From: a bacterium
GTDB lineage: Bacteria > Acidobacteriota > Blastocatellia > HR10
Length of the DNA: 64,000 nucleotides
Reading direction: 5' to 3'
Assembly (NCBI GenBank): GCA_041640655.1
Contig: JBEPZV010000002.1
Coordinates: forward strand, 94,182-158,181
Shown: positions 34,214 through 56,235 of the stretch, one piece after another
Position numbering within the stretch: position 1 is the stretch's first letter
How the letters are laid out: the number at the start of each line of letters is the position of its first letter
The notes under the pieces: model-generated
Told to the model about the DNA's origin: nothing
What the model saw: only the letters and a program-made list of their open reading frames with translations
The model's database searches: none
Program-made: the position numbers and the translations under genes

Positions 34214-34477
34214 TTACACGATATTCTCCGTCTCTCCCCTGATCTGCCCTAGGACCTCCTTCCTCACCCACCGCGCCTCCCTCAAGATGTAGAGGTAGAT
34301 GGAATCGCGCTCCTCATCGATGATGTCCTTCAACCCGAGCTTCACACGCTCCAGTTGCGCCTCGCTCAGCTCCCCCTCGAATGCGGAATTCTGCACCCAA
34401 TTCAGGTAGCGGCGCAGGAACTGACAGACTTTCGCGACCCGCTCTTGCTCCACATCATAGACGAGGATAACGTACAT
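34214..34477 (-). CDS. cas2: CRISPR-associated endoribonuclease Cas2
   Basis: 87 aa from the ATG at 34477, with GGGGGAGGG just upstream. Sequence MYVILVYDVEQERVAKVCQFLRRYLNWVQNSAFEGEL is typical of Cas2. Lies 13 nt after the cas1 stop. Confidence 0.9.
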   Translation of the reverse strand: MYVILVYDVEQERVAKVCQFLRRYLNWVQNSAFEGELSEAQLERVKLGLKDIIDEERDSIYLYILREARWVRKEVLGQIRGETENIV

Positions 34478-34490
34478 TGCCCTCCCCCTC

Positions 34491-35678
34491 TCACCACCAT
34501 GCGCGCAGCGCCTGATACGGCTCAATTCCCAGCAGATGCCGCACGAGCTTGTAGCACTCTAATCGGATGAACCCACGATACGAGACATGCCGCCCAAGGC
34601 GCCGATGCTTCACCGTCGTTTGCAGCCGATGCTCGAACTCCTGCACGACGATCTTGCGCGCGCGTTCCTTCAAAGCTGCGAACCCCACCTCCGACAGGAG
34701 ATCGCCCTCGCCGATCATTTGCCGATTGATCAACGCGAAGATCATCTTGTCTACAATCATCGGCTTGAAGACCTCAGCGATGTCCAGCGCCAGGGAGAAC
34801 CGACGCGTCCCCGGTTCATGCAGGTACGAGATCGTGGGATTGAGGGGCGTTCGGTAGATCTGCGAGAGCACGGCCGCATACAACAGTGAGTTCCCGAAGC
34901 TGATCAGCGCGTTGATCAAATTATCGGGCGGACGCTTCACGCGCTTGAGAAACGGCGTCTCCAGATCGAGAATCTCATTGAAGGCGCGATAGTAGATCTC
35001 GCGCATGCGCCCTTCGGCCCCCATGAGCGCCGCGATGGAGTCGGCGCGTTCAAGCTCCGCAGCCTCTCGCTCCAAGGCTTCGATGACCTCTTGCAACGCC
35101 TTGCCCCGATTCCGGTAGTAGAGCACGTTGCGATGGAGGTTGTGATAAGCGCCGCGCGCGAACTCCCGCGCGATCGTGAGCCGCTTGGCCGCATCGGTGT
35201 AATGCTCCACCTGCCTCACGAGCAGGTGTCCGGAAACGTTCGTCTCTCGCGGATAGTAGGAACCGCTGTAGAACCCATAGTAGTTGAAGACGTGAACCGG
35301 AATGCCCTTCTGCGCGAGGAAGTTCAGAAGCTTCGTATTCAGGGCGATCTCACCGAAGAGGAAGAGTTCGGTGACATCCTCAACCGGGATAATCCGCCGA
35401 CGCTCAGATGAAACTGCGGTCTTACGCCTCTCGTCATCTGGCGGAGATCCGGCTTCTCCTGCGGAATTGGGCGCTCGCCCTACCTCGGCCGCCGAAGATT
35501 CTTCGGGCTCCTCGCCCGCGCGTTCCGAGGGAAGCCCGTGCCCATACTCAGTCCCCGCAGAAGATCGCTCGGCTTCGTCCACGCGTTGAGAGATCGCCGG
35601 ATCTTCCCCCTCCAAATATAACGTGTTCCCTCTTCGCCGAAGACGCCCGTTTTGGAAGACATAATAACTGCGCGCCAT
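34491..35678 (-). CDS. cas1: CRISPR-associated integrase Cas1 (I-B-like) with a low-complexity N-terminal-domain insertion
   Basis: ATG at 35678 preceded by GGGAGGGGG (the ORF is open to 35693). Cas1 blocks: YYVFQNGRLRRRGNTLYLEG, IIPVEDVTELFLFGEIALNTKLLNFLAQKGIPVHVFNYYGFYSGSYYPRE and the C-terminal catalytic domain (ISYLHEPGTRRFSLALDIAEVFKP). Confidence 0.9.
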   Translation of the reverse strand: MARSYYVFQNGRLRRRGNTLYLEGEDPAISQRVDEAERSSAGTEYGHGLPSERAGEEPEESSAAEVGRAPNSAGEAGSPPDDERRKTAVSSERRRIIPVEDVTELFLFGEIALNTKLLNFLAQKGIPVHVFNYYGFYSGSYYPRETNVSGHLLVRQVEHYTDAAKRLTIAREFARGAYHNLHRNVLYYRNRGKALQEVIEALEREAAELERADSIAALMGAEGRMREIYYRAFNEILDLETPFLKRVKRPPDNLINALISFGNSLLYAAVLSQIYRTPLNPTISYLHEPGTRRFSLALDIAEVFKPMIVDKMIFALINRQMIGEGDLLSEVGFAALKERARKIVVQEFEHRLQTTVKHRRLGRHVSYRGFIRLECYKLVRHLLGIEPYQALRAWW

Positions 35679-35823
35679 CTCGCCCCCTCCCATTCATCAT
35701 CAGCCCACAAAGCCGCCCCCATCCGCGCGACTCATGTCTCGGATGAGCTTCGTCGGCACTGCGATCTCCACACCGCGCTCAGCGCGCCATAAATCCGGCG
35801 CGATTTCGACCGCCTCATTCAGT

Positions 35824-36339
35824 TCATCCCCAACACAACTCAGCATAAGCGCAGGACCGACAAATCGGCATGAACTCGACTTGTGGCGGCGCGGGAAGCT
35901 GCTCAATCCGACGGATCTCCCGCAACGCCGCTTCGACCTCTCGCTCAGCGTCTTCGGTCAGCCACACTGGTTCCCGCCGCCGCTCTTTGGGAAAGCGCAG
36001 CTCGCCGGTCAGTCCCGCCACGCCCAGGCGTTTCAGGTAATAGAGGTAGTAGAGGACTTGCCGTCGGGCGGCCTCTTTCATACACTGAGAATATTTAACC
36101 TCCAGCACCTTCCATTCGCTTTCCAGAAGATCCACCTTAATGAGATTATCAATGAGCAATTCTCGTCGTGGCTTCTCGCCGTAGGCACGCTCGTGAAGCA
36201 ATTTGCCCAAAGCCACGCGGTCGCTCTCTTGCTCCATGCGAATGTCGTGGCTATAGAGCCAGAGTTTCCGCGGACAGACCACATAGTAGTTGACCTTGAT
36301 ACCGTTCGTCTTCAGCTCGGCAAATTCTTCATCGGTCAT
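35824..36339 (-). CDS. cas4: CRISPR-associated exonuclease Cas4 (RecB-like, Fe-S Cys cluster)
   Basis: 171 aa from the ATG at 36339 (the ORF track extends it spuriously to 36582). One N-terminal Cys (YYVVCPRKLWLY) plus a C-terminal CRSCAYAELC cluster. Position between cas3 and cas1. Confidence 0.85.
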   Translation of the reverse strand: MTDEEFAELKTNGIKVNYYVVCPRKLWLYSHDIRMEQESDRVALGKLLHERAYGEKPRRELLIDNLIKVDLLESEWKVLEVKYSQCMKEAARRQVLYYLYYLKRLGVAGLTGELRFPKERRREPVWLTEDAEREVEAALREIRRIEQLPAPPQVEFMPICRSCAYAELCWG

Positions 36340-36352: not shown

Positions 36353-38905
36353 TCAAATGATCCAGTCGGGCACGGGAGACTCGACCTCGCCTTCGCGAAC
36401 ATCCAAAGTTTCATAAACAGCGCGTGACAAATAGGGAAAACCTTCGGTAATCTGGCCGACCGAGAAATCGCCCAATCGCTGGATAGGCATCGAGAGGGTA
36501 TACGCCTGGAACATCGGTCGGAGCAACCGACTGATGCTGAACGCCAACCGACGCCCCGTCTCACGAGAGAGCTGACACGCATATTGCTTCACTCTCTCTG
36601 CTTCAACATGGAGAAATTCTCTCAATGGGCGGAACAATTCTCCCGAGTCACAGAGTTTGCACAGTAAATCCAATGCTCTCATTGGATCTTTACTCGACCA
36701 CAGCTCAACAGCAATCTCCTTCAAAAATTCAGCCGTCTCATCGGCAATGCAAAATACCGAAACCTTCCAGGCCCGCTCCTCACCACGAAAGAGCTTCTGG
36801 AAATCCAGCTCGTCAAACTGCCAGGCGAGCGCCGAGCGCAAGATCTGCTCGGACGGCTCGCTCGACAACCGCCGCTCTAACTCCTCCACATACTCTCGCT
36901 GAATCTCCCCATAGTCGCATTCCTCGATGATATTTCGCCTTCTTGAAAGGACATCCAGCGTTGCCGCCGTGAAGAGAGAATCGTAGATGTAGCTGTGGAA
37001 CTCTCGTCCACGGTCGTTTTCATCATCCACCCAGCGATGCACCCAGACATCGGCCGGCGGTCGCTTGCCAAACCGATTCACCCGCCCGCAGATCTGCAAC
37101 AGCGAATCCCACGGCGCAAAGTCCCGCACCGCCTCGTCCATATCGAGATCAACGCCGGCCTCGACGCATTGCGTCGAGACAACGCCCACCCACGCCTCCG
37201 GATCGCTTTCGATGAGCGTGCGGATTTCCTTGATCCGCCGGAGGCGTTCTACCGGCACAACGCTACCCGATAGATGGAAGAGCCTGAGCTCCCGAAACTC
37301 CCTTTCCTCTTCCTTGAGCTGACTGAGACGCGCGAATAGATCCCGCGCGCTGCGAATCGTATTGGCCACAAGCAGAACTTTTTTCCCCTTGCGTTGGAGG
37401 AGCCAATCGCCGAGCTGCGATAGATAGTGGCTAAATGGAATGGGCTCCAGGTCGCGATGCAGGCGCGTCCGCGCGAGCGATCCGAAGTAAGATTTCTCAT
37501 CTCGCACGAGTCCCGGTATGCCCCGCAGAAAAGGCGGATGCGTGGCCGTCATATACAGGATCCGAACGCCGAGCTTTTCGCGAAGCTTTTCCAGAAATGT
37601 CCCTACGGCCGGGATGAGCCGCGCCGGGATCGTCTGCACTTCATCGAGCAGCGACACCGCTCCCGGTAGGCGAAAGAAACGACGGATGAAGCCGCGATCC
37701 TGCGAGAGGAACGAATAGAAGAGTTGATCAAAGGTCGTCACGATGAGGTCCGCGTCCCAATCCTCTAAGGCGAATCGCGCCTTCTCGAAGTTCGCTTCTT
37801 CGTTACTTTTGCTTTCGGGGAAGCTCAGGCTGTGATGCTGGATCACGGAAACGCCGGTTTTGTCTTCTGGGAAAACTCGACGCGCAATGTCCGTCGCCTG
37901 CTCGATGATGGAAAGATAAGGCAGCGCGTAAATGACGGGCTTCGATCCTTGCCTATCCTCGTGCTTGCGTTGCACGGCTCCAGCGAGGTAAAGGCCCATC
38001 AGCGTCTTGCCAAGTCCCGTCGGCAGAGTCAATCTGAAGGCCGAATCGTCCGAGCCTTCGAGGGCTTTTTGAATCTCCTGCCAGGCTCTCTCGCGAAGCC
38101 CCTGAAAGAGCGGGCTGGCCGGCGGTTGAGCGGACGCGTACTGTCGAATCCGTTCGGGATCAAGCGGCGCGGCTTGTTGGGGTTCGGGCGCTCTCACGAC
38201 GCAAGCGACATCGGCTTCAGTCAGAGCCGAGACGACGAGCAGGAGGGCGAAATAAAGGTCAACGAGCCAACTCTCGGAAGGATTCGCTTCGTCGGCTTTC
38301 TGTCTGAGCAGTTGGCCGAATTTTTGAAAGCATTTAGTGATCTGTTGGGCCGTCATTTTCTCGAACTGCTTGCGGTAATCCGCAAAGCGTAGAGTCAGGT
38401 CGAGCGGCTCGCATCGCATCACGAAACCCCAGATGCGCTCGTCTATGTTGCTTTGAGCAACGGCGATCTGATGCTCGATACTCGCTTCTTCAAAAGCTTC
38501 TTCGAGGTTACAGAGCAGCCCATGATGGCGGTTGACGGCGTAGGCGCAGACGAAGGGGAGCAGCCGCGTCGGCTGCGGCTTCTGGCCGAAAACATGCGAG
38601 GCGACGATGAAGGTGAAGACCGAGGAGATCGCCGCGTGATCTTTATCCTTGCCTTTGCCGCCATGGATGTAATCCTGGAACTGATGCTTCGCCTTTCCGA
38701 AGTCGTGCGTGCATCCGGTGATGAAGGCCGCTTTAGCGAGATCGTCGGCGCGAACGGCTAAATTCAAACCTGATTTGAGGCGGAGGATGAGCGTTGCGGC
38801 GCGACGGCCGGTGTCGCTAAGGTGATCGTAAAGCCGAATCGGCCGCCCCGACGCATCCGGCGGATGCGAGATCAATTCACGCATCTGGGGCGAAGGTATC
38901 GTCAT
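36353..38905 (-). CDS. cas3: Cas3 HD nuclease / DEAD-DEAH helicase fusion
   Basis: 850 aa. HD region (ITGCTHDFGKAKHQFQDY, DHAAISS), helicase motif I (LTLPTGLGKTLMG), motif II (LLDEVQ) and later helicase motifs (VSTQCVEAGVDLD). Confidence 0.92.
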   Translation of the reverse strand: MTIPSPQMRELISHPPDASGRPIRLYDHLSDTGRRAATLILRLKSGLNLAVRADDLAKAAFITGCTHDFGKAKHQFQDYIHGGKGKDKDHAAISSVFTFIVASHVFGQKPQPTRLLPFVCAYAVNRHHGLLCNLEEAFEEASIEHQIAVAQSNIDERIWGFVMRCEPLDLTLRFADYRKQFEKMTAQQITKCFQKFGQLLRQKADEANPSESWLVDLYFALLLVVSALTEADVACVVRAPEPQQAAPLDPERIRQYASAQPPASPLFQGLRERAWQEIQKALEGSDDSAFRLTLPTGLGKTLMGLYLAGAVQRKHEDRQGSKPVIYALPYLSIIEQATDIARRVFPEDKTGVSVIQHHSLSFPESKSNEEANFEKARFALEDWDADLIVTTFDQLFYSFLSQDRGFIRRFFRLPGAVSLLDEVQTIPARLIPAVGTFLEKLREKLGVRILYMTATHPPFLRGIPGLVRDEKSYFGSLARTRLHRDLEPIPFSHYLSQLGDWLLQRKGKKVLLVANTIRSARDLFARLSQLKEEEREFRELRLFHLSGSVVPVERLRRIKEIRTLIESDPEAWVGVVSTQCVEAGVDLDMDEAVRDFAPWDSLLQICGRVNRFGKRPPADVWVHRWVDDENDRGREFHSYIYDSLFTAATLDVLSRRRNIIEECDYGEIQREYVEELERRLSSEPSEQILRSALAWQFDELDFQKLFRGEERAWKVSVFCIADETAEFLKEIAVELWSSKDPMRALDLLCKLCDSGELFRPLREFLHVEAERVKQYACQLSRETGRRLAFSISRLLRPMFQAYTLSMPIQRLGDFSVGQITEGFPYLSRAVYETLDVREGEVESPVPDWII

Positions 38906-39044: not shown

Positions 39045-40325
39045 TTAATCATCCTCGGGAAGCTGAGGAAGATGATACTCATTGAGATTTTTCAAGCGAT
39101 CCTGAACTAGTTTCGACAAAAAGTCTTCCACCACGACATCTCGGAGCTTCTGAAAGGCTTCTTGACCCACCGGTTGGAAACCATGCGCCAAGGGCGAGAT
39201 GTTGCGGCATTCAAGATAGGGCTTCAGCCGAGATTTAGATTCTCGATACAGGTTGAGAAAATGTTGCCCTAGCTCGTCTCCAAGATCAGCGAGGAGCTCG
39301 TAGCCATGGAGCATACCTACCTTGAGGCGCCCGTCAGGCCCCACACGGGATTCCCATTTGGGCCGCACGGCTTCTGGGATAACCCCCAAACAGACGTTGT
39401 CACTTCGAATGCCCTTGTCGTGGAGGCGCCGTTGGGCGATATACTCCATCAAACGATAGAGGAGGGCCACGGCCACATCATATCTATGCTCCTTCGCTCG
39501 CCGATCCGCATTCGCCAGGATGTCTAAGGAGATTGCCTCGTTTAACGGTAAGCCGCACCTGCAGCTCTCACTTTTACACCGACTATTCCAGATCCCATGG
39601 ACGATGGGGCTAGCCCTTTTAAGTTCGTTTTCAAGCCCTAAATCCTGTACGATGTCCTCGAAGTCCTTAAGCACCTGGCGAAGGCCCTGAGCTGCATCTT
39701 CGTAGTGAAGCACGTCCCAGGCTTCGCAGGCCTTCGCCAGTTGCTCTACAAAATTCAACCGTCTTTTGTGTTCTTCTCTGACTATACGCCACTGAAGGTC
39801 CTCGATGCGATTCAGAACGCTCGCAAAGTGGCCCGCATTGAAAAGTTGGACCAATGTCTTCCAATGTCGCCGGAACAGGAGATTTGATGGCGGGAAGCTC
39901 AATAGGCGCTCGGTGCCTGACTTGACCTGACCCCGTTCGTCCCGCTCCCCCTCAATATAACTAACGCCAGCCAATTCGAGATTGATGGCCACATAGTCCA
40001 CAGCGGCTGACATCGCTTTGGTGCCTCGCGTGTAGTCAACATAAACCTGATTAGGTTGAAACCCTCGATCCCGGAATAAAACCCGACGAATGACCTTCTC
40101 GTATTGTAATGCTAGCTCTTGAACATCATTGATCTCTTGAAACTCTTCGATCTTGTAGCGAGACTCAGGGAGGGATTGGGTTTGAACGACCTTATCAACG
40201 TTGCTTCGGCTCTGAGGCGTACAGAGAAAAAGAACGAAGTCTGGATTATGCTGGTCGGTGGCAAATACCAGCGAGCGATCTACATCCTTACCAACCCCAA
40301 CTGTCAGAACTAATGCTTTACTCAT
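39045..40325 (-). CDS. CARF-HEPN protein (Csm6/Csx1 class; resembles the TIGR02710-type family)
   Basis: 426 aa from the ATG at 40325, with GGAGG 11 nt upstream. N-terminal CARF signatures (ALVLTVGVGKD, VDYTRGTKAMSAA). C-terminal R-x6-H HEPN motif (ECRNISPLAHG). Visibly lower GC than the flanks (one 60-nt line counted at 38%). Confidence 0.75.
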   Translation of the reverse strand: MSKALVLTVGVGKDVDRSLVFATDQHNPDFVLFLCTPQSRSNVDKVVQTQSLPESRYKIEEFQEINDVQELALQYEKVIRRVLFRDRGFQPNQVYVDYTRGTKAMSAAVDYVAINLELAGVSYIEGERDERGQVKSGTERLLSFPPSNLLFRRHWKTLVQLFNAGHFASVLNRIEDLQWRIVREEHKRRLNFVEQLAKACEAWDVLHYEDAAQGLRQVLKDFEDIVQDLGLENELKRASPIVHGIWNSRCKSESCRCGLPLNEAISLDILANADRRAKEHRYDVAVALLYRLMEYIAQRRLHDKGIRSDNVCLGVIPEAVRPKWESRVGPDGRLKVGMLHGYELLADLGDELGQHFLNLYRESKSRLKPYLECRNISPLAHGFQPVGQEAFQKLRDVVVEDFLSKLVQDRLKNLNEYHLPQLPEDD

Positions 40326-40359
40326 AGTAGCTGGTCCCTCCGCAAAATAAGAAGAGCGA

Positions 40360-41358
40360 TCATCGAACTTCCTCCACAATCCAGCGCTCGACTTCTTGGC
40401 GGGCGCGCTCAAGTTGTCCGGGAGTTTGCGCAGTGGTCGTGAGCCGAAAGCCGATTCCCCGAACCCTCCGCCCCGGCAAATAGAGAACGAGCGCCTTCGG
40501 AGCTTCTGCCCTCACCCTGGGCTGCCCTTCCCGCCAGCCGATGTCCTCGATGCGCTCTACAAACAGAAAACGGTTGGCTAAACGGTCTGCCCACTTTCTG
40601 GTTTCCTCGGCTTCCTTAGGCTCTTTTCGTGCCAGGCTCTTCTCGCATTCGCCAGCCCGGGGTTCGGGCAGGGCCTCGACGCTCTCCAGGACCCGCAAGA
40701 CCATCCGCCCCAGATCGGTCGGTCCACTAGCCGTGAGCAGTCCGTTCTGTTCGAGAAGTCCTTTGACCTCGGGACGCACCGAGCTGCCTTTCAGCCCCGC
40801 GATGATGTCCCCTAACAGCGGGAAAAGCCCAATGAAGGGCAGATTCACCAGCTTGATCTGGTCGACGGGCGGATGAAGTGCCCGCTCTTGCTCTTCTTTG
40901 CTCTTGTTCCGGAGTTTCGAAATGTGCCCTTCCTCCTCCAGCACAGGGTCATCCACAAGCACATGGAAAAGGCGCCTGGCACCATAAAACTGTACTGCCA
41001 GCGTCAGGAGTGCCGACATGGCCTTGCGTCCGCCGGCGATGGAGGCGTAGACCTCCCAGCCCTTCTTGCGGTATTCCCTCAGGACGGCGCAGGCTTGATT
41101 CATGAACTCCAAGGCGGCTGTATCGGAGTCTACATCGTAGAAGGCTTCCAGGATGGGGGGCTCCAGAAGCGTTACCTTGCCATCGTAGTAATCCGGCAGA
41201 TGCTCTCTCAAAAGACTCAGTGCATCCCGGGCATCGGTGTCTTGAGTCGTCAGAATGACGACATAGTCTATATGCACGCCGTCTGCCCGGAGGCGGTCAA
41301 TGGCTTCCGTGACGACGGCGGGGCTCTCCCCCAGCGTGGCGAGGAGGACTTTCTTCAT
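40360..41358 (-). CDS. CARF-domain protein (NE0113/Csx14-like N-terminus) with wHTH-like middle and unassigned C-terminal domain
   Basis: 332 aa from the ATG at 41358. MKKVLLATLGESPAVVTEAIDRL and SIAGGRKAMSALL are CARF hallmarks. The segment LLEQNGLLTASGPTDLGRMVLRVLES looks like a winged helix. I could not assign the last ~100 aa (FLFVERIEDIGWREGQPRVRAEAPKALVLYLPGRRVRGIGFRLTTT...). Confidence 0.7.
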   Translation of the reverse strand: MKKVLLATLGESPAVVTEAIDRLRADGVHIDYVVILTTQDTDARDALSLLREHLPDYYDGKVTLLEPPILEAFYDVDSDTAALEFMNQACAVLREYRKKGWEVYASIAGGRKAMSALLTLAVQFYGARRLFHVLVDDPVLEEEGHISKLRNKSKEEQERALHPPVDQIKLVNLPFIGLFPLLGDIIAGLKGSSVRPEVKGLLEQNGLLTASGPTDLGRMVLRVLESVEALPEPRAGECEKSLARKEPKEAEETRKWADRLANRFLFVERIEDIGWREGQPRVRAEAPKALVLYLPGRRVRGIGFRLTTTAQTPGQLERARQEVERWIVEEVR

Positions 41359-44875: not shown

Positions 44876-44878
44876 GCT

Positions 44879-45715: not shown

Positions 45716-45720
45716 GCCAC

Positions 45721-49671: not shown

Positions 49672-49958
49672 TAATATACCACGAAGCTAAGCAAAGAGTA
49701 ATAAGACCAGAGATCCCTCACCTTTAGAAAGCCGGAGCTTCGGTAGAGCCATCGCTCAGGGAGCCCTTGAAAATCAGGGCAGTCCTGAAAGCGCTTGCGC
49801 GTTGAGCACTCGACTTCGCGCCTTTTGGGCTCAAGATGGGGAATTCCTTTTTCCACTGCCAAGACGCAGAGGATCGAGTAGCGCGATTTGACCAATCGCG
49901 CCACTTTAACTGCACGCCAAACCGTATGCTCAATCCACGCATCGCTCAAAAAATACAC
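49611..49958 (-). CDS. Candidate unannotated small ORF (115 aa) with C-terminal hydrophobic/aromatic helix
   Basis: GTG at 49958 with AGGAGG exactly 6 nt upstream (inside the cas5 3-prime end). The stop TGA overlaps the SD-supported TTG start of cas10 (TTGA). Sequence ...RKRFQDCPDFQGLPERWLYRSSGFLKVRDLWSYYSLLSFVVYYWHTLIP... No homology is recognisable by eye. Confidence 0.35.
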   Translation of the reverse strand: MYFLSDAWIEHTVWRAVKVARLVKSRYSILCVLAVEKGIPHLEPKRREVECSTRKRFQDCPDFQGLPERWLYRSSGFLKVRDLWSYYSLLSFVVYYWHTLIPANETRDVETRRIN

Positions 49959-50694
49959 ATTGCACCTCCTTCTTCCTAAGCACGAAGATCGGGATTTTAC
50001 CTCCGGCACATCGCACCTTCAGCGGTTTCGCTTCGCGCGAGAGATAGGCCAGATAGAGATGGCGAAAGCGACGATCCGGGAAGACTTCGTTGGGAACTCG
50101 CTCTTCGCGCAAGATGGCTTCGGACTCGGAAAGATCAATCGCCTTCGCTGTCGCCTCATCGAGAGGGAGGACCGAACAGATATCGGCTTGCTCTACCTCA
50201 ATCAGTTCTGCAACATCTTCTCCTTCCCACTCGATGTCGGCCAAAAAACCCATGATTCCCATGCAAGGCGGATACACCCATCGTTTCTGCTGGAGACGCT
50301 CTCTCAGTTCGTTCATCAGCTGCTCATCCCGATGCCAAAAGACAATCCGATAGTGAGGTCGGCGAATGACCTCCAGGTTCTCCTGAAATGACTCGATCAT
50401 CTTGGCAGGGCGGAATCTCCCTTTATTCAGGATTGGTGGACCTTGGCGCCACTTTTCAGGAAGACGATCCTTCACGATCGATCGCAGCGGACAGACGGCG
50501 ATACGCGTCGCGTCTGCCGGAAAGCGTTCCGCCAGCTTGCTACGTGGGACGCCCAAGATCGCGCCGACCATCCCGATCACGGATGTGCGCGGCGGAAAAC
50601 TATAGGTCAGGGCCGAGGTAGTCGTGAACCACTTGCGCCAGTGCCCAAATGTGCCACGAATGGTGAAAAGATAGACTGGTATCCCATCGCCCAT
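49930..50694 (-). CDS. cas5: Cas5 (type I-B)
   Basis: 254 aa. VYLFTIRGTFGHWRKWFTTTSALTYSFPPRTSVIGMVGAILG is a typical Cas5 N-terminus. Follows cas7. Confidence 0.85.
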   Translation of the reverse strand: MGDGIPVYLFTIRGTFGHWRKWFTTTSALTYSFPPRTSVIGMVGAILGVPRSKLAERFPADATRIAVCPLRSIVKDRLPEKWRQGPPILNKGRFRPAKMIESFQENLEVIRRPHYRIVFWHRDEQLMNELRERLQQKRWVYPPCMGIMGFLADIEWEGEDVAELIEVEQADICSVLPLDEATAKAIDLSESEAILREERVPNEVFPDRRFRHLYLAYLSREAKPLKVRCAGGKIPIFVLRKKEVQCVFFERCVD

Positions 50695-50710: not shown

Positions 50711-51736
50711 TTAGAATTCTCGGATGGTCAAGGCATCAGACTTGTCGCCCAGGAGCTCCTTTAACTTTTCGCTCAGCTCCTCAGGCGAGAGCCTCAGCCC
50801 GGCATCTATCCAGCATTCGATTCGGGCCAAATTCTCGCGCCGCCGTTGAACGCACTCCAGCACGCCGTCTATTTTCACTTTGTAGTCTTTAGGAGAGCGG
50901 ATGCGCCGCTCGTCTCCCAGATTGTGCTCCAGCTCGACGCGGTCGAGGAAATAGCCACATTGAACTTCGTTCCGGAAGTCGAAGCGCAAAAGAAGACGCG
51001 GATGGTGGAAAGCCTTCGAGCGCGAATGCAGCGCCAACGTGCCGTGCCACAGCGCTTCCATCAGCAGTTTTACATCATCCTCGGTGAGGCCCGTTTCCTT
51101 TGCCAGGTTCTCGTTGATCACACCGTAGAAGCCGATGAGCGCGTAGGGGACGATGAACTCGCGCCGAAACGTCTTCTGTCGGGCTGTTTCTTTGGAAGCG
51201 AAGCCGCCGGTGCCCGCGATTTCGATGATCTCAGCAGCATGGAGGCTCTGTCCCGGATTGAACTGCACGGCTCCGGTCAGTTGAATGCCTCCGCTCTCGC
51301 CCTTTTCCTCGGTCTTCGCTGAGGCTTCGCCCCCACCCTTCTTGCCCTTCGTTGTTTTCTTCTCAGTGATCGGCACGAGAGCGCCGAACAGCCGCACATC
51401 CACGCACTTCTTGATGAGCTGCTCTTTAGCCTTTTCCACTTCGCCGGCTTTCGGCAAGCTTCCGAAAATCTCTTCGTAGCGTCGCTCCGCCGTTAGAGCC
51501 TTCTCATCAGCGACGCGAACGAAGATTTCCAGGCCATCGTCCCGATCGCGGCGCTTGTAGCGGAGGATATAATCCCGAATGGTCCGTTTGAGGCGCACAT
51601 CGGTGACATCAATCCGACCCGTTTCGGGGTCCTGTCTTGGGCGGTTTTCGAACGGATCGCCGTTCGGATTGCAGCGAAACACGTCGTAGAGAAAGAGGAT
51701 CTCAGACCGATAGGGATAGGTTGAACTTTTTTCCAT
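50711..51736 (-). CDS. cas7: Cas7 (type I-B, Csh2/Csd2-like)
   Basis: 341 aa. LFLYDVFRCNPNGDPFENRPRQDPETGRIDVTDVRLKRTIRDYI (NPNGDP signature). Confidence 0.9.
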   Translation of the reverse strand: MEKSSTYPYRSEILFLYDVFRCNPNGDPFENRPRQDPETGRIDVTDVRLKRTIRDYILRYKRRDRDDGLEIFVRVADEKALTAERRYEEIFGSLPKAGEVEKAKEQLIKKCVDVRLFGALVPITEKKTTKGKKGGGEASAKTEEKGESGGIQLTGAVQFNPGQSLHAAEIIEIAGTGGFASKETARQKTFRREFIVPYALIGFYGVINENLAKETGLTEDDVKLLMEALWHGTLALHSRSKAFHHPRLLLRFDFRNEVQCGYFLDRVELEHNLGDERRIRSPKDYKVKIDGVLECVQRRRENLARIECWIDAGLRLSPEELSEKLKELLGDKSDALTIREF

Positions 51737-51753: not shown

Positions 51754-53766
51754 TTAGGATTCACCTTCTATTTCCTCTTCGGGAGAAGCTTCCTCGGCCT
51801 CTTCGCCCGGTGGCGTCTCTAACGCCTTACGGACGGCATCCACCGTCGCCCACCAGAGCCCCCAGCCCAGACAGAAGCAAAACCGAGCCTCCTCATCCGA
51901 GAGCTCGCCGTCCTGCGAAGCGAAATCGCACGCCGCCTGTTGAATCGCCTGAATCGCCTGGGTGTTGGCGTCTAATTGGCGAAGCTTCAGCATGAGTTCA
52001 GGGAAGATCTTCACCATGATCTCTTCCCGCGAAACCGCAAGCCCTCGCAGGCGGCTGACGATGGGCATCTCGCCGGCCTTGCTCTGTCTCTCGCCTCGCT
52101 GCTTGCTTTCCACCTGCCCAAAGAGAACACCAATGAGGAACGCCGCACGCTTTGCGGGGGAATCAAGGAGAAGCCTTGGCTTGAAGAAATTCTCCCAAAA
52201 CTCCGGCGTCACCCCGGACTTTACTGGTTGCGTTGTGGTTTGCGTTGCCATATTTGCACCTCCTTCGAGTTCCGTTGAACGATAAATGAGTGTCCATATT
52301 GCCCAGATGAGCCTTGCACGCTCGGCGAGAGCGCTCTGCACGGTTCGCTTTTGGTCCTTGCTGCTGATCGTCTCTTGATATGTGGCCCGCAAGAGGCTGT
52401 CAGCATCCTGCCAGAACTCGCGCTCCTGTGGGCGTTGATCCGTCAGGATCGCCGCCACAAGATGCATCGGAGTGAACTTGAGCGCGCCTTGCGTTTCATC
52501 TCGACCTCGGCGGGGCCATTTCCAGGCCCGCCCCACGAACTCGAAATCCGCCCGCAGTTGTGAAGATAATCGGCTCCCCTCTTCATCAAGAGCCCCTTCC
52601 CGTAAAAGCTCGCGTAGCCTTCCCAACCTCCGTTTTGATCTCCGCAGGTTAGTGGGCAGTATCTCAGAGATGGTGTAGAGGAACATGAACTTCTGACCCG
52701 ACTGGTAGAAAACGAGCGAAGCCGAACGAAAAGGAGGCCTGTCCTTAAATCGCCCCTCGGACTCCTCGACGAGTCCTTCAAACAGATTCGGAAAAGAATC
52801 TCCGCCTTCGTTCTCGGCGTCACCTGCGCTTTTCGGCTTCGCTTTCTTTCCCTTGTCTTGGATTGGAAATTCCTCTTGTGGCACGACCTTATCCTTCGTG
52901 CGCTCGCGCCATTCCCAGAGGAAGTGGACGAAGGAACCTTCGATCTCCGCCGCATCAGGCTCCAGCTCGGGCACAAGATAAGTAGGTGTGCCGGCAACTT
53001 GCGTGCGCAGGTTCTCTTCAAGGTAGCTCTCAGCTACATAGAGCCATTTCGCGCATTCCTCACAAACGGGAGCGTATTTCCAAAGGTTCACTTCGCGGCC
53101 CATCGGACTGAAGCCGAGCTTTTCTACAGTGAAGAAGCGGAAGGGAATAGTTGAGCATACCTCGCCCTTCTTGCCACAGACAGCACAACGACCCTTACCT
53201 TTAGCTTGAGCCCTGCGCTCACCGAAGATTTTTCTCTTAATGAACCTCTCACAGAGTTTTTCTTGATCCCCTGGCATTTTTCCATTCCACATAACGCTCA
53301 GCAAGACGGAAGTTTCATCCCTCGTCGCCTCATCGAGCTTCTCTGATAAACCACTCTCGCTCCATTCTTTCAACTTCTGAGCGATATCATTGGGTAGCGA
53401 GGCGCTTATTTCTCTGAGTCCCGTTTGAATGATTTCCTGGCGGGTTTTCTTTGGTTTCGCACTGCTGCGCCCCTTGGAGCTTCGGTCTTCACGGAAGACC
53501 AAGAGCCATGATGGGCCTATGGCGTGCTTGCCCGTGGACAAAGCATAGAGATACTTATACCGCTCATCGTCCTTGTAATCTTCGAGGCGCACCTCTTGAT
53601 TTGTTACATCAACCACGGCCACCTTGGGGATGATTTTATCTTTGCCTTTTGTTCTGATGGCGCTCTCGCACAGGCGATGAAGGATAACTTGTTCCAGAGT
53701 CCAGCCGCGCTTTTTGCTTTCATAGCGGGCCATCTCTCGGGCGACTTGAACCAGTGTTGCGATCAT
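51754..53766 (-). CDS. cas8b: Cas8b-like large subunit (type I-B, TM1802-like)
   Basis: 670 aa between cas6 and cas7. Zn-ribbon-like CAVCGKKGEVCS ... PVCEECAKWL. Called mainly on size and position. Confidence 0.7.
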   Translation of the reverse strand: MIATLVQVAREMARYESKKRGWTLEQVILHRLCESAIRTKGKDKIIPKVAVVDVTNQEVRLEDYKDDERYKYLYALSTGKHAIGPSWLLVFREDRSSKGRSSAKPKKTRQEIIQTGLREISASLPNDIAQKLKEWSESGLSEKLDEATRDETSVLLSVMWNGKMPGDQEKLCERFIKRKIFGERRAQAKGKGRCAVCGKKGEVCSTIPFRFFTVEKLGFSPMGREVNLWKYAPVCEECAKWLYVAESYLEENLRTQVAGTPTYLVPELEPDAAEIEGSFVHFLWEWRERTKDKVVPQEEFPIQDKGKKAKPKSAGDAENEGGDSFPNLFEGLVEESEGRFKDRPPFRSASLVFYQSGQKFMFLYTISEILPTNLRRSKRRLGRLRELLREGALDEEGSRLSSQLRADFEFVGRAWKWPRRGRDETQGALKFTPMHLVAAILTDQRPQEREFWQDADSLLRATYQETISSKDQKRTVQSALAERARLIWAIWTLIYRSTELEGGANMATQTTTQPVKSGVTPEFWENFFKPRLLLDSPAKRAAFLIGVLFGQVESKQRGERQSKAGEMPIVSRLRGLAVSREEIMVKIFPELMLKLRQLDANTQAIQAIQQAACDFASQDGELSDEEARFCFCLGWGLWWATVDAVRKALETPPGEEAEEASPEEEIEGES

Positions 53767-53769
53767 GGC

Positions 53770-54513
53770 TTACCCTCCGGGCTCTATCATACCAAAGCCC
53801 TGGCTATTTTTAATTCCAAGCCCAACGTCGTAAGCGAAGCGGATCAGTCCTTCATCCCCCCACATCTGAAGGTTCAGGTACCATGCTCGCACGGCCGTAT
53901 CAAAGACGCGAACCAGTTTTTGCTTGGGATTCCAAACACGAATACTGAGCTCCCCTCCGTGCCATTCCCGCCCATGAAAAGCTTGCCACTTGTTGATGAG
54001 ATTACGCTGAAGCGCTTCGACGAACTCAGGCTGATCGGGACGGAGGTAAATAGGATGTCGCGAGCAATTCGGATCTCCTATCGAAGCGGCGATAGGAGAA
54101 GCTGTCCGAAAAACCAAGCCACTTCCAAGTTCGGGGGGTTCGATGCGAACTATGTCCACAACCTCGATAAGAGTGCCAAAGATATGGAGCTTTCCTGCTT
54201 GCCGCTCTATGCCTTTTATGAAGGTATCCGTGAATTGCTGGTCTGGACTACTGATCTGCCACGTCATCCACTGAACATCAGTCAGACCGTGCGAGGACAG
54301 ACTCCAGCGCGTGGGGGTTAAATCTGAGTAGACAAAGAGACGGTATATGCGATTCTTCCAGGAAAAACCCTGATCATGGAGCTTGGTGCCGTAATCTGAA
54401 TCGGCGGTATTCAAGGTCATGTAAACCACCTTAGTCAGGGCAGCGCGGTAATCCCAAGGGATAGTGATAGGTTTATGAGCTTCAAGTAACAATCGCAATC
54501 TCATCCCGATCAC
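53770..54513 (-). CDS. cas6: Cas6 endoribonuclease (copy adjacent to the I-B effector genes)
   Basis: About 245 aa (likely the ATG at 54504). RAMP fold signature with C-terminal G-rich loop (GLGIKNSQGFGMI). Lower GC, like the downstream cas genes. Confidence 0.85.
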   Translation of the reverse strand: MIGMRLRLLLEAHKPITIPWDYRAALTKVVYMTLNTADSDYGTKLHDQGFSWKNRIYRLFVYSDLTPTRWSLSSHGLTDVQWMTWQISSPDQQFTDTFIKGIERQAGKLHIFGTLIEVVDIVRIEPPELGSGLVFRTASPIAASIGDPNCSRHPIYLRPDQPEFVEALQRNLINKWQAFHGREWHGGELSIRVWNPKQKLVRVFDTAVRAWYLNLQMWGDEGLIRFAYDVGLGIKNSQGFGMIEPGG

Positions 54514-54657
54514 CTCACCACTTGTACTTTAGTCCTCCTTACTACATTTTCTGCGGGAGCCGGCTTCTGGAGTTACGCATCTTATGCCCACCTTAAACGG
54601 TTCCAGCAAGACCGCCCGTCTTGTGTCCACCCAGAAGTTGCTGGTGGGGCGGTTGGG

Positions 54658-54754
54658 GTGGAGTTGAATTACAGGTGATGGCGATGTGACCAGGCTCGGT
54701 CTGGGTTCGACTGGCCCGAGCCACCAGTGGAGTCGGATTACGGGTGATGGCGAT
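54658..54754. repeat. Two 28-nt direct repeats (25/28 identical) with 69-bp period in the cas6-cas6 intergenic region
   Basis: GTGGAGTTGAATTACAGGTGATGGCGAT at 54658-54685 and GTGGAGTCGGATTACGGGTGATGGCGAT at 54727-54754. The 41-nt interval contains the inverted repeat GGCTCGG...CCGAGCC. Confidence 0.7.
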
Positions 54755-55467
54755 CTCACTTTTGTCCTCCTCGTTCGTGTGCTGATATTTTCCCCACGCA
54801 TGCGTCTCGGTGTCAAGCGGTTTCTTCACCGAACTCGCCTGCGCCCGCACGTCGTCTCGGCACGGAGCTCCGAGCGGCGCCTTCGTCACCCCCTCATCCC
54901 TATCCTCGCTCTGGATCGGGGGAGGGGCCTGAATCTCCAGGTGCTCCCCGTCACGAACCTTTCCACGAATCGCAGAGTGATCGTCGCTCGACCCGAAGGG
55001 CTCTTTGCGCACGCAAGACAATATGCCGTCATGTCGTCTGCCCTCACCCGTTCAGATGAAGGAGCATGCTCAACGCATCGCCTCCTCTGCTCTCTCGGCG
55101 CCACTCCCGGTGTTCCGGAGGTACGCGGTCGCACTACGGCGCATCCGGTGATGAGGGCGCGGCGGTGAGCGCCGGTTGAACTCATCGCTCCGCGCGAGAG
55201 ATTCTCGGCAGCGGCCGTGTCCGCCAGGCGAAGGCGTTGTGCCAGGGAGAGTGCGCTCATGCGCCGGAATGCTGCGTGAGCAGAAGTACAGAGAGGAGTC
55301 CGAGCGCTTCGGCCGCTGCCCAGCGGCCGAGGGCCATGATGAATCGTTGGACGAAGGTGCAAGGATGCCCTCGCGCGAGAGCGATCAATGGATGGGGACG
55401 CGTGCTCTCTGCCCATTTCGGGTCCTCCCTTGACCAGAAGCGGCGCGCGCCGCATGTCCGCCTCCGC

Positions 55468-56235
55468 TCATGCCCTTTGCCGCAAAGAGGTCGGGTGCTC
55501 GTGCGGCAGGCACACCATGCCGAAGCCCTGCGCGTTGCGCTCGCCGAATCCGGCGTCATATCCGAGTCGGATGAGGTCGAGCGATCCACTCACGCGAAAC
55601 GACATCAGCCATCCGCGCACATCGGTCTCGTTCACCCGCATCAGTTTCGATCTCGGCTCGCTCAGCCACTCGAACTGAAGCTCGCCCTCGGGCGCCTCGC
55701 CGTAGATCGCCAGAGCCTTCCGCTTCAAGTTCTCGACGAGCACGCGCGCGAAGTCGGGCTCCGCGGGCGAGAGGAATCGTTTGCGAAACCTCCCTTCAGC
55801 GTCACGGGAGCCCGTGGAGGCGAAGATGGGCGACAGGGTCACGAGCGTCATCGTCTCGGCGAACGTCGGGGGCAGAAGGACGCCGATCTGTCCCACGTGG
55901 AGCACACTGGCGCCGAGCCGGATTTCCGGTCGCATGAGCAAGCCAAGCGCCAGGGCTTCGATGAGTGACTCCAACGGCGAGGAGACCCACCACCGGAGGC
56001 GACCGCGCGCGCGCAACCCTCCGGGAGTTCGCTCATACTGTTCCGGGTACAAGAGCGAGAAGGTCGCGAGCTTATAACGTTTGCCGCCGCCGGAGAACCC
56101 CTCGTCGTGCACGTCCCGCGCCAACTTCGGCCGGCCTTGTTCCATCGCCCGGTAGAAGATCCCGCGCAGCCAATCGAGATAATCCCACGGCAGGAAGATC
56201 TCGTCCGGGGCGAAGAATTCAACGCTGATTCGCAT
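55468..56235 (-). CDS. cas6: Cas6 endoribonuclease (second, GC-rich, isolated paralog)
   Basis: 255 aa, collinear with the other Cas6 (FLPWDYLDWLRGIFYRAM; C-terminal GFGERNAQGFGMV). Separated from the rest of the operon by about 950 bp. Confidence 0.85.
   Translation of the reverse strand: MRISVEFFAPDEIFLPWDYLDWLRGIFYRAMEQGRPKLARDVHDEGFSGGGKRYKLATFSLLYPEQYERTPGGLRARGRLRWWVSSPLESLIEALALGLLMRPEIRLGASVLHVGQIGVLLPPTFAETMTLVTLSPIFASTGSRDAEGRFRKRFLSPAEPDFARVLVENLKRKALAIYGEAPEGELQFEWLSEPRSKLMRVNETDVRGWLMSFRVSGSLDLIRLGYDAGFGERNAQGFGMVCLPHEHPTSLRQRA

What the first reader, a model, noticed from the sequence alone, without database searches (positions are those of the whole stretch)
34214..56235. Type III-D effector cassette nested inside a type I-B operon, sharing one adaptation module and one array
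Gene order on the minus strand runs: cas6 / about 950-bp gap / cas6-cas8b-cas7-cas5 / (small ORF) / the III-D block / cas3-cas4-cas1-cas2 / leader / array. The III-D block reads cas10-cas7-csx10-cas11-(MNT-HEPN)-cas7-cas7-csx19-like-cas7-small ORF-CARF-CARF/HEPN. The canonical I-B order is cas6-cas8b-cas7-cas5-cas3-cas4-cas1-cas2. Here about 11 kb of III-D genes sit exactly between cas5 and cas3. Every gene is on the same strand. Most junctions are ATGA or TGATG overlaps or gaps of a few nt. The only sizeable gap is 38906-39044, in front of cas3. Only one repeat type and one cas1-cas2-cas4 set are present in the window. This suggests that a DNA-targeting Cascade/Cas3 system and an RNA-sensing, cOA-signalling III-D complex both draw on the same pool of about 263 spacers. 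Nesting one effector class inside the operon of another is a less usual architecture than side-by-side loci.
Basis: partly seen in the sequence, partly recalled or inferred. Interest (0 to 1): 0.7.

Follow-up and report, generated by a model that had tools for sequence, protein, structure and literature searches.

The report
Interleaved type I-B / III-D CRISPR locus
One chromosomal CRISPR locus of a hot-spring acidobacterium carries a DNA-cutting (type I-B) and an RNA-sensing (type III-D) effector set interleaved on one strand, with a single spacer-acquisition module and a 265-spacer array; this is a real, clade-wide gene-order variant of the already known "composite type I + type III" loci, not a new kind of system.

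Summary
On the minus strand the order is cas6, cas6-cas8b-cas7-cas5 (I-B), an 11-kb III-D block, then cas3-cas4-cas1-cas2, a leader and a 266-repeat array. The III-D block reads cas10, cas7, csx10, cas11, MntA-HepT, cas7, cas7, csx19, cas7, small ORF, Csx14-like CARF, Csm6. Four independent assemblies carry the same junctions.

New findings:
- The distal cas6 is of the III-D-linked kind and the proximal one is I-B, so the two systems are interleaved rather than one simply inserted in the other.
- Relatives of this I-B system with Cas3 at or below 66% identity are canonical (cas5 directly followed by cas3).
- All eight loci of the closer Cas3 subclade (at least 70% identity) carry a III-D cassette between cas5 and cas3. 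Two unrelated III-D variants occupy that slot and are intermixed on the Cas3 tree, so cassettes have been swapped.
- The window's own III-D block is a recombinant, with a breakpoint inside csx10.

crRNA sharing is inferred, not shown. Composite I-B + type III loci with one adaptation module are well documented, and crRNA sharing is proven in Pyrococcus furiosus. Interest is therefore moderate.

The parts
15995..33536 (-). CRISPR array: 266 repeats (30 nt) and 265 spacers. The trailer-end repeat at 15995-16023 is degenerate.
   Evidence: The reverse complement of the repeat ends in ATTGAAAC, the 8-nt 5' tag, so transcription is on the minus strand. The degenerate repeat lies at the low-coordinate end, which is the trailer.
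33537..34213 (-). Leader. The repeat-proximal 92 nt are conserved and include a palindrome next to the first repeat.
   Evidence: Positions 33537-33628 are 85% identical to the sequence that follows an identical repeat at the start of contig L058.
34214..34477 (-). cas2 (I-B type)
   Evidence: Cas2b, E 3.5e-33. The profile match starts at residue 17 of the ORF.
34491..35693 (-). cas1 (I-B type), with a low-complexity insertion of about 70 aa after residue ~25
   Evidence: Cas1b E 2e-137; Pfam Cas_Cas1 covers residues 94-354.
35824..36339 (-). cas4
   Evidence: Cas4b E 8e-55; Pfam Cas_Cas4 E 6e-52.
36353..38884 (-). cas3 (HD nuclease + helicase, I-B type)
   Evidence: Cas3b E 2e-137; member of a distinct Cas3 clade (44-85% identity, then a drop to 30% or less).
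39045..40325 (-). csm6-like CARF-HEPN effector RNase
   Evidence: CARF_HEPN E 3e-76; Pfam Csm6 HEPN and 6H domains; TIGR02710 above its cutoff.
40360..41358 (-). Csx14/NE0113-like CARF protein (CARF5), a possible ring nuclease or sensor
   Evidence: CARF5 E 6e-155; PF09623; TIGR03642 Csx14 at 92.2 bits (cutoff 90.35).
41297..41671 (-). Conserved small all-alpha protein of unknown function. It is the last gene of the III-D effector module.
   Evidence: homologues at the same position in about 34 loci. No Pfam, NCBIfam, PADLOC or PDB hit.
41671..42663 (-). cas7 (Csm3/Csm5-like RAMP, III-D)
   Evidence: Csm3 E 4e-32, Cas7_IIId.
42641..43102 (-). csx19
   Evidence: Csx19 (CAS-III-D) E 3.8e-44.
43099..43983 (-). 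cas7 (Csm3-like)
   Evidence: E 4e-34.
43976..44875 (-). cas7 (Csm3-like)
   Evidence: E 2e-63.
44879..45715 (-). Fused MntA (nucleotidyltransferase) - HepT (HEPN RNase) protein inside the effector operon
   Evidence: Pfam Polbeta + HepT-like; NCBIfam HepT_toxin 73 bits and MntA 59 bits.
45721..46098 (-). cas11 (III-D Csm2-like small subunit)
   Evidence: Csm2 CAS-III-D E 4e-29.
46095..47294 (-). csx10 (III-D Cas5). It contains the recombination breakpoint near 46650.
   Evidence: TIGR02674 at 275 bits, cutoff 177; sliding-window identity.
47291..47941 (-). cas7 (Csm3-like)
   Evidence: E 1e-21. Gene start as called.
47938..49614 (-). cas10 (558 aa; palm/cyclase with GGDD; no HD domain)
   Evidence: no HD-like sequence in any frame, and no room for one upstream.
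49615..49929 (-). Non-conserved 315-nt spacer between cas5 and cas10. It is 48-64 nt in the relatives L008 and L058.
   Evidence: no homologue of the ORF or of the DNA in any other locus.
49930..50694 (-). cas5 (I-B)
   Evidence: Cas5b E 6e-43.
50711..51736 (-). cas7 (I-B, Csh2 type)
   Evidence: Cas7b E 9e-64.
51754..53766 (-). cas8b
   Evidence: Cas8b E 3e-42.
53770..54513 (-). cas6, I-B lineage
   Evidence: it clusters with the single cas6 of canonical I-B relatives (44-69% identity).
54514..55467 (-). 954-nt gap between the two cas6 genes. It holds a remnant of about 30 codons (54586-54690) of a cas8-like gene.
   Evidence: 55-67% aa identity to the N-terminus of the ~500-aa gene that follows stand-alone III-D modules. 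In L058 the two cas6 genes are 3 nt apart.
55468..56235 (-). cas6, III-D-linked lineage
   Evidence: it clusters with the cas6 genes that sit directly upstream of cas10 in stand-alone III-D loci (43-52% identity, against about 30% to the I-B type).

Best explanation
This is a composite, interleaved type I-B / type III-D CRISPR-Cas locus on the chromosome of a thermophilic Blastocatellia-like acidobacterium.

Proposed mechanism:
1. One Cas1-Cas2-Cas4 module of I-B type acquires PAM-selected spacers at the leader end of a single array.
2. The array is transcribed on the minus strand.
3. Cas6 cuts each repeat and leaves the 8-nt AUUGAAAC 5' tag. Two paralogues are present, one from each parental system.
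4. The same crRNA pool is loaded into (a) a Cas8b-Cas7-Cas5 Cascade that recruits Cas3 to degrade DNA, and (b) a III-D complex of Cas10, Csx10, Cas11, Csx19 and 4x Cas7.
5. The III-D complex binds complementary transcripts, cuts them with Cas7, and uses the Cas10 cyclase to make cyclic oligoadenylate.
6. That signal activates the CARF-HEPN RNase Csm6. It is probably sensed or degraded by the Csx14-like CARF protein.
7. Cas10 has no HD nuclease, so the III-D arm should act through RNA cleavage and signalling only.

What is shown: gene identities, order, strand, intact motifs, the single array and adaptation module within 64 kb, and conservation of the arrangement.

What is inferred: co-transcription, crRNA sharing, cOA signalling, and the roles of the two Cas6 proteins.

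Evolution: the split between cas5 and cas3 arose once in a I-B subclade. The slot has since exchanged III-D cassettes by recombination.
For: Typing.

Array orientation and acquisition:
- Orientation and trailer degeneracy.
- Seven spacers target one protospacer. Six share the same end, which is the tag-proximal and PAM-proximal end in crRNA sense; the seventh is offset by about 16 nt. Length varies at the other end. This is as expected for PAM-anchored I-B acquisition.

Compatibility of the III-D family with this repeat and adaptation type:
- The stand-alone relative L054 carries a cas1-cas2 pair 61% identical to the window's, next to cas10.
- The stand-alone L009 has a repeat that also ends GGGATTGAAAC.
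- The nested relative L058 begins with the identical 30-nt repeat and a homologous leader.

Integrity:
- All ORFs are full length.
- Read directly from the translations: GGDD in Cas10; the HD motif (HDFGK), GKT and DEVQ in Cas3; R-x6-H in Csm6; R-x4-H in HepT.

Not an artefact: four assemblies share the same junctions.

Conservation:
- Variant A is nested in the window, L008 and L058/59.
- Variant B is nested in L062, L071, L142, L143 and L144.
- The nested loci form one Cas3 clade inside canonical I-B relatives.

[quoted passage not shown] Precedent for complex loci with one adaptation module: PMC7145637.
Against: - No expression or RNA-binding data exist, so sharing is not demonstrated.
- Only 64 kb of the genome was visible. 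Another array or adaptation module may exist elsewhere.
- Two Cas6 paralogues could mean two repeat specificities.
- Non-coding gaps of 315 nt and 160 nt flank the III-D block in this genome. They could hold internal promoters or terminators. The consensus scans were uninformative: 6 promoter-like sites against 5.1 expected, and 11 terminator-like sites against 19.3 expected.
- No protospacer was found, so the PAM and the strand bias are unknown.
Confidence: 0.75

Rival explanations
1. The two systems are merely neighbours. The III-D complex uses crRNAs from another array, or has its own adaptation genes elsewhere in the genome, and does not share the 265-spacer pool.
For: - Only 64 kb was examined.
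- A III-D-lineage cas6 is retained beside the I-B one.
- In L058 an array sits at the cas6 end of the locus. Multiple arrays per locus therefore occur in this family.
Against: - The array next to the III-D-type cas6 in L058 has exactly the same repeat and leader as the window's array.
- Stand-alone members of this III-D family use I-B-like Cas1/Cas2 and repeats with an ATTGAAAC tag.
- 86% of complex loci have a single cas1 (PMC7145637).
Confidence: 0.1
2. One of the two effector sets is a decaying remnant. For example, the Cascade genes may be functionally uncoupled from cas3 by the 11-kb insertion, or the III-D set may be disabled by loss of the HD domain.
For: - Cas10 lacks the HD domain that 14 stand-alone relatives have.
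- Non-coding gaps flank the block.
- A cas8-like pseudogene fragment lies in the cas6-cas6 gap.
Against: - All 20+ genes are intact, with catalytic motifs.
- The arrangement has persisted through 28-55% protein divergence in eight lineages.
- HD-less Cas10 is common in stand-alone loci of this family and is typical of III-D.
- The 265 repeats are almost perfectly uniform.
Confidence: 0.08
3. Assembly chimera: a metagenomic mis-join placed a III-D contig inside a I-B locus.
For: - The sequence appears to come from metagenome-assembled data.
- In one MAG copy (L002) cas3 is cut off at 71% and followed by an unrelated gene.
Against: - The cas5-cas10 junction is identical in three assemblies other than the window: JGI, NCBI and one Logan run (L001-L003; the fourth assembly, L004, holds only the interior of the III-D block).
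- The csm6-cas3 junction is identical in two of them.
- The homologous nested order is found in different species.
Confidence: 0.01
4. There is functional coupling beyond crRNA sharing. The slot between cas5 and cas3 would be selected because HD-less III-D complexes rely on, or license, the I-B Cas3 for DNA clearance.
For: - All eight nested loci, with two unrelated III-D variants, have an HD-less Cas10 and place cas3 directly after the cassette. In variant B the last cas7 overlaps or abuts the cas3 start.
- The arrangement has a single origin and was retained through cassette swaps.
Against: - HD-less Cas10 is equally common in stand-alone loci.
- No known interaction links type III complexes to Cas3.
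- Gene order alone is explained by recombination between the conserved flanks.
Confidence: 0.06

Closest known systems
Pyrococcus furiosus cas cluster 1 (Cst type I-G + Cmr type III-B + cas6 + cas1/2/4)
   Same: - One co-located cluster holds a type I and a type III effector module with a single adaptation set.
- The repeats are unstructured and cut by Cas6 to give an 8-nt 5' tag.
- Experiments show that every crRNA enters all the complexes (PMC4436667; PMC4666368 abstract).
   Different: - The type III module is III-B (Cmr), not III-D.
- There is one Cas6, not two.
- From my own recollection of the gene map (not tested here), the Cmr genes lie between cas6 and the type I genes, not between cas5 and cas3.
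Complex CRISPR-Cas loci of Bernheim et al. 2020 (I-B + type III, single adaptation module)
   Same: - Several effector clusters in one locus.
- One cas1.
- Arrays of one (often I-B) repeat type (PMC7145637).
   Different: - Those loci are described as adjacent clusters, mostly I-B + III-B in Firmicutes.
- An effector cassette that splits cas5 from cas3 is not described in the text I read.
Adjacent or 'hybrid' I-B + III-B/III-D loci of Clostridium botulinum/sporogenes, including replacement of III-B by III-D with cas6 retained
   Same: - I-B and III-D sit in one chromosomal site.
- Effector-module replacement by recombination is documented (PMC8865420, citing Puigbo/Kristensen 2017).
   Different: - The clusters lie side by side, not interleaved.
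- The host phylum is different.
Marinomonas mediterranea I-F / III-B
   Same: The type III system uses type I crRNAs as a second line of defence against PAM escape (PMC5576922, title and abstract).
   Different: - The loci are separate.
- The type III system has its own RT-Cas1.
Stand-alone III-D loci with the same gene order (e.g. Thermoflexus hugenholtzii L060; Armatimonadota MAG L056)
   Same: - The module cas10-cas7-csx10-cas11-(MntA-HepT)-cas7-cas7-csx19-cas7-small ORF-CARF is identical in order.
- Proteins are 57-96% identical.
   Different: - Cas10 carries an N-terminal HD domain.
- cas6 lies directly upstream of cas10.
- A type I-like cluster lies downstream, side by side.

Membership tests
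Type I-B CRISPR-Cas | Signature large subunit Cas8b, with Cas7 and Cas5 of I-B type | tested here: met
   Cas8b E 3e-42; Cas7b/Csh2 E 9e-64; Cas5b E 6e-43.
Type I-B CRISPR-Cas | Cas3 with fused HD nuclease and helicase | tested here: met
   Cas3b E 2e-137, plus a Cas3-HD profile hit. The HD, GKT and DEVQ motifs are visible in the translation.
Type I-B CRISPR-Cas | Canonical contiguous order cas6-cas8b-cas7-cas5-cas3-cas4-cas1-cas2 | tested here: not met
   An 11-kb III-D block separates cas5 from cas3. Relatives with Cas3 at or below 66% identity do have the contiguous order.
Type III-D CRISPR-Cas | Cas10 large subunit (often without HD) with an intact cyclase palm | tested here: met
   Cas10 E 3e-85 and the palm2 domain. 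GGDD is present. No HD.
Type III-D CRISPR-Cas | Csx10 (a distinct Cas5) and Csx19/all1473 | tested here: met
   TIGR02674 at 275 bits (cutoff 177); Csx19 E 4e-44.
Type III-D CRISPR-Cas | Several separate Csm3-like Cas7 genes plus a Csm2-like Cas11 (III-D1-like, not the fused III-D2/Dv form) | tested here: met
   four separate Cas7 genes and one III-D Csm2.
Composite type I + type III locus with shared adaptation module and array | Two effector modules, one cas1-cas2(-cas4), and one repeat type in the locus | tested here: met
   (within the 64-kb window only).
Composite type I + type III locus with shared adaptation module and array | The same crRNAs are physically loaded into both complexes | not testable with these tools
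   This needs RNA sequencing of purified complexes.
cOA-signalling type III system | Active Cas10 cyclase plus a CARF-domain effector | tested here: met
   Met at sequence level only. GGDD is present. Csm6 CARF-HEPN and a Csx14-like CARF are present. cOA synthesis itself was not tested.

The most novel reading that the evidence does not exclude
The cas5|cas3 junction of this I-B subclade is a selected 'cassette slot'. Interchangeable HD-less type III-D effectors are plugged into a I-B frame because the two machines are functionally coupled. One example would be RNA-activated III-D complexes recruiting or licensing the I-B Cas3 for DNA destruction. Another would be obligatory co-transcription that sets the ratio of the two complexes. 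In this reading the link goes beyond sharing crRNAs.
Probability: 0.06. Interest if true: 0.75.

Novelty: new variant of a known kind. Interest (0 to 1): 0.38.

Why it matters
[quoted passage not shown] This locus adds a natural case where the two effector gene sets are physically interleaved. The arrangement has persisted through deep divergence. The type III cassette has been exchanged between two unrelated III-D variants while the I-B frame stayed in place.

That gives a compact, apparently single-operon test bed of about 22 kb plus a mini-array. It could be used to study how one crRNA pool is partitioned between Cascade and a type III complex. It is also a clear example of modular recombination in CRISPR-Cas evolution.

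It does not reveal a new mechanism.

Tried and rejected
1. HD-domain remnant between cas5 and cas10. tblastn with three HD-Cas10 N-termini found nothing in the window.
2. 'HD loss is linked to nesting'. Rejected: HD-less Cas10 is also common in stand-alone loci of this family.
3. Protospacer, PAM and strand-bias search. Four IMG/VR scans with cores of multiply-acquired spacers gave no hits. Spacers versus the window and 140 loci gave only chance matches of 16-20 nt and no self-targets.
4. Promoter and terminator scans across the locus. Counts were at or below shuffled expectation, so they are uninformative.
5. Rfam search of the window: no hits.
6. Repeat hairpin: folding energy is not better than shuffles (z -0.54), so the repeat is an unstructured type.
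7. Small ORF 41297-41671 as a second Cas11. hhalign probability against the Cas11 alignment is 8%. There is no PDB relative. The single-sequence AlphaFold model has pLDDT 58, too poor for a fold search.
8. Arrays next to related loci. Few lie within the 10-kb flanks.
9. Assembly chimera. Rejected.
10. Solved structures. Cas10 is only remotely similar to the III-D Cas10 chains 8s9t, 9wxh and 8bmw (E 5e-9 to 8e-7). Csx10 has no hit.

Full report
OBSERVATION

All large minus-strand ORFs between 34214 and 56235 were scanned against PADLOC, Pfam and NCBIfam.

- The outer genes are type I-B:
  - Cas2b (E 3.5e-33), Cas1b (2e-137), Cas4b (8e-55) and Cas3b (2e-137).
  - On the other side, Cas5b (6e-43), Cas7b/Csh2 (9e-64), Cas8b (3e-42) and two Cas6.
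- The inner 11 kb is type III-D:
  - Cas10 (3e-85; only the palm2 domain in Pfam; GGDD present).
  - Four separate Csm3-like Cas7 proteins.
  - Csx10 (TIGR02674, 275 bits against a cutoff of 177).
  - A III-D Csm2/Cas11 (4e-29) and Csx19 (4e-44).
- The accessory genes are a fused MntA-HepT protein, a Csx14/NE0113-like CARF protein and a CARF-HEPN Csm6 (TIGR02710).

The array has 265 copies of the 30-nt repeat (0 expected by chance) plus a degenerate trailer copy at 15995-16023. That gives 265 spacers of 34-39 nt, with a mode of 36. The reverse complement of the repeat ends in ATTGAAAC. The degenerate copy lies at the low-coordinate end. The array is therefore read on the minus strand from the 677-nt leader next to cas2.

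The rest of the window encodes DnaJ, BamA, glycosyltransferases, CoaE, AtuA, DUF481, TsaD, MtnA and RsmE. It holds no other cas gene, array or Rfam family.

The cas island has 57% G+C against 65% in the flanks.

The TsaD protein is 98% identical to that of 'bacterium HR10'. It is 90% identical to that of a MAG on the same 3,082,426-nt contig as locus L059, whose record is titled Blastocatellia. The host is therefore a thermophilic acidobacterium.

CORRECTIONS

With the gene starts called in other assemblies, the non-coding gaps are:
- cas5 to cas10: 315 nt.
- csm6 to cas3: 160 nt.
- cas4 to cas1: 130 nt.
- cas6 to cas6: 954 nt.

The gap before cas3 is therefore not the only sizeable one. The ORF in the cas5-cas10 gap has no homologue anywhere else. 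The small ORF after the last cas7 (41297-41671) is conserved in about 34 loci.

NOT AN ARTEFACT

The same protein-coding order recurs at 100% identity on a JGI contig, an NCBI MAG contig and two Logan assemblies.

RELATIVES OF THE III-D MODULE

A Csx10 search found homologues at 45-77% identity in many phyla. A scan of one genome per GTDB species returned 49 loci. tblastn with the window's proteins gave two results:
- The module cas10-cas7-csx10-cas11-(MntA-HepT)-cas7-cas7-csx19-cas7-small ORF-CARF is conserved almost everywhere.
- I-B genes flank it on both sides in only one of the 49 loci (L008, Blastocatellia).

Context look-ups added a second nested relative, L058/L059 (two Blastocatellia MAGs). 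The closest stand-alone relatives (L054/55, Armatimonadota L056, Thermoflexus hugenholtzii L060) share three features:
- cas6 lies directly upstream of cas10.
- Cas10 is an HD-containing protein of about 750 aa.
- A type I-like cluster lies downstream, side by side.

RELATIVES OF THE I-B FRAME

Cas3 belongs to a sharply bounded clade. Identities run from 44% to 85% and then drop to 30% or less. A metagenome scan with a Cas3 alignment, followed by tblastn, showed two groups.

Canonical, uninterrupted cas6-cas8b-cas7-cas5-cas3 with one cas6:
- L063, L064 and L065 (Cas3 61-66% identical to the window's).
- L066 and L067 (48-49%).
- L069, L070 and L072 (44-46%).

All loci with Cas3 at or above 70% identity are split between cas5 and cas3. 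Three carry the window's III-D variant: the window, L008 and L058/59. Five carry a different III-D variant: L062, L071, L142 (= bacterium HR08), L143 and L144. That second variant consists of:
- a Card1/CARF-PD-DExK nuclease;
- a Cas10 of about 550 aa;
- a Cas7 of 226 aa;
- a Csx10-like protein of about 540 aa;
- a fused double Cas7 of 485 aa;
- Csx19;
- a Cas7 of about 820 aa.

Its Cas10 is only 28-31% identical to the window's.

In a neighbour-joining Cas3 tree the eight split loci form one clade nested within the canonical ones. The two III-D variants are intermixed on it, and the window is sister to HR08.

Between the window and HR08, the 3' part of cas5 is 92.7% identical at the nucleotide level. 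cas3 is 86.1% identical, starting exactly at its start codon (38884). Everything in between is unrelated.

The simplest reading is a single origin of the split, followed by cassette replacement through recombination in the conserved flanks.

INTERLEAVING

The proximal cas6 (53770-54513) clusters with the single cas6 of canonical I-B relatives. The distal cas6 (55468-56235) clusters with the cas6 genes that precede cas10 in stand-alone III-D loci.

The layout is therefore cas6(III-D) | cas6-cas8b-cas7-cas5 (I-B) | cas10...csm6 (III-D) | cas3-cas4-cas1-cas2 (I-B).

The 954-nt gap between the two cas6 genes is specific to this lineage; they are 3 nt apart in L058. The gap holds a remnant of about 30 codons of the ~500-aa cas8-like gene that follows stand-alone III-D modules.

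MOSAICISM

Sliding-window nucleotide identity gives two segments:
- 49632 to about 46650 (cas10, cas7 and the 5' half of csx10) is closest to the nested relative L058. Identity is 69-81%, against 55-70% to stand-alone loci.
- About 46650 to 40633 is closest to the stand-alone loci L056/L054. Identity is 73-97%, peaking at 94-97% over the MntA-HepT gene, against 52-75% to L058. The profile stopped at 40633; a separate blastn alignment extends the 81.7% match to L056/L054 down to 40348.

The III-D block is thus itself a recent recombinant, with a breakpoint inside csx10.

HOW IT MOST LIKELY WORKS

Shown:
- Both effector sets, the adaptation set and the array are intact.
- Catalytic motifs are present: GGDD in Cas10, HD plus helicase motifs in Cas3, and R-x-H HEPN motifs in Csm6 and HepT.

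Supported indirectly:
- Seven spacers target one protospacer. Six share the same tag-proximal end (the seventh is offset by about 16 nt), and length varies at the distal end. This is the signature of PAM-anchored acquisition by Cas4-Cas1-Cas2.
- This III-D family is compatible with I-B-type memory. L054 has a cas1-cas2 pair 61% identical to the window's, next to its cas10. L009's repeat also ends GGGATTGAAAC. The nested relative L058 starts with the identical repeat and a homologous leader.
- The repeat is unstructured, like the Cas6-processed repeats of P. furiosus.

Inferred:
- One pre-crRNA is cut by Cas6 to give 8-nt-tagged crRNAs.
- These crRNAs load into Cascade (PAM-dependent DNA targeting with Cas3) and into the III-D complex.
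- The III-D complex performs transcript binding, Cas7 cleavage and cOA synthesis. cOA activates Csm6. The Csx14-like CARF protein acts as sensor or ring nuclease.
- Without an HD domain, the III-D arm should lack direct DNase activity.

COMPARISON WITH WHAT IS KNOWN

- Complex loci that combine I-B with type III modules, one cas1 and I-B-type repeats are common (PMC7145637).
- I-B with adjacent III-B or III-D, and replacement of III-B by III-D, are described in Clostridium (PMC8865420).
- P. furiosus has a type I-G + III-B cluster whose crRNAs enter all complexes (PMC4436667; PMC4666368).
- The gene order of the III-D block matches the canonical III-D order as I recall it from the Makarova classifications. 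This is my own knowledge and was not tested here. It corresponds to the unfused, III-D1-like form rather than III-D2 (PMC12669027, PMC13294483).

What I did not find described:
- placement of the cassette between cas5 and cas3;
- the two Cas6 lineages;
- exchange of III-D variants in one slot.

VERDICT

The finding is real, correctly interpreted and conserved in a clade. It is a gene-order variant of a known kind of composite system, with no evidence for a new mechanism. I score interest at about 0.38.

LIMITS

- There are no expression or biochemical data.
- Only 64 kb of the genome was visible.
- The trees are neighbour-joining on tblastn-derived sequences.
- The flanks of many related contigs are short.
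- No protospacers were recovered.

Noticed in passing
window 40350-49632 (breakpoint near 46650, inside csx10): The III-D block is a mosaic. The cas10-cas7-5'csx10 part resembles the nested relative L058. The part from 3'csx10 to the CARF gene resembles stand-alone loci from other phyla, with up to 94-97% nt identity over the MntA-HepT gene. This implies recent inter-phylum recombination.
   Followed up: yes
window 44879-45715 (-): A single polypeptide fuses an MntA-like nucleotidyltransferase to a HepT HEPN RNase (the type VII toxin-antitoxin pair). It sits between cas11 and cas7 inside the effector operon. It is present in only a subset of related III-D loci: L007 (partial), L010, L016, L054-57 and L058/59.
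   Followed up: partly
window 41297-41671 (-): A conserved protein of about 124 aa, predicted to be all-alpha, ends the III-D module in about 34 loci. It has invariant Trp25 and Trp28. It has no family, PDB or Cas11 relationship and may be an undescribed III-D component.
   Followed up: partly
L062 1-21000 (contig Ga0209479_1000008); also L142, L143, L144, L071: Sister I-B loci carry a different III-D variant, with fused Cas7s and a Card1-like nuclease, in the same cas5|cas3 slot. In L062, Cmr1 and Cmr6 genes (III-B) follow cas3, which would make it a triple composite.
   Followed up: partly
window 34491-35693 (-), Cas1 residues ~26-95: Cas1 carries a low-complexity, acidic, Ser/Gly-rich insertion of about 70 aa between profile positions ~25 and ~26. 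Related loci also have long Cas1 proteins of 371-400 aa.
   Followed up: no
window array: spacers at 19202, 19663, 20259, 22375, 25473, 27454, 27914; identical neighbours at 30428-30464 and 30495-30531: Seven spacers hit one protospacer. Two of them are identical, and six share one fixed end. Sixteen further groups of two or three related spacers exist. One adjacent pair is an exact duplicate, which may be a real duplication or an assembly effect.
   Followed up: partly
window 54586-54690 (-), within the cas6-cas6 gap: A short remnant (27-36 aa, 55-67% identity) of the N-terminus of the ~500-aa cas8-like gene found downstream of stand-alone III-D modules. A promoter-like site matching 10 of 12 positions lies just upstream at 54816-54787.
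   Followed up: partly
L058 1-125: In the nested relative the contig begins with the identical 30-nt repeat and a homologous leader. There the array lies upstream of the distal cas6 and is divergently oriented. Array position therefore differs between relatives.
   Followed up: partly
L002 13880-16690 (GCA_006214125.1, VAPR01000997.1): In this MAG copy of the same locus, cas3 stops at 71% of its length and is followed by a 'Metalloenzyme' gene. This is either a strain-level deletion or a mis-join.
   Followed up: no
window 33541-33570: A perfect palindrome, GAAATTTGGCC-GAAAAA-GGCCAAATTTC, directly abuts the leader-proximal repeat. It is conserved with compensating changes in L058 (GGAATTTGTCC...GGACAAATTCC). 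It may be a leader-anchoring or host-factor site.
   Followed up: no
window 34214-56235 versus the flanks: The cas island has 57% G+C (I-B effector genes 54%) against 65% in the flanking housekeeping genes. This is consistent with horizontal acquisition.
   Followed up: no
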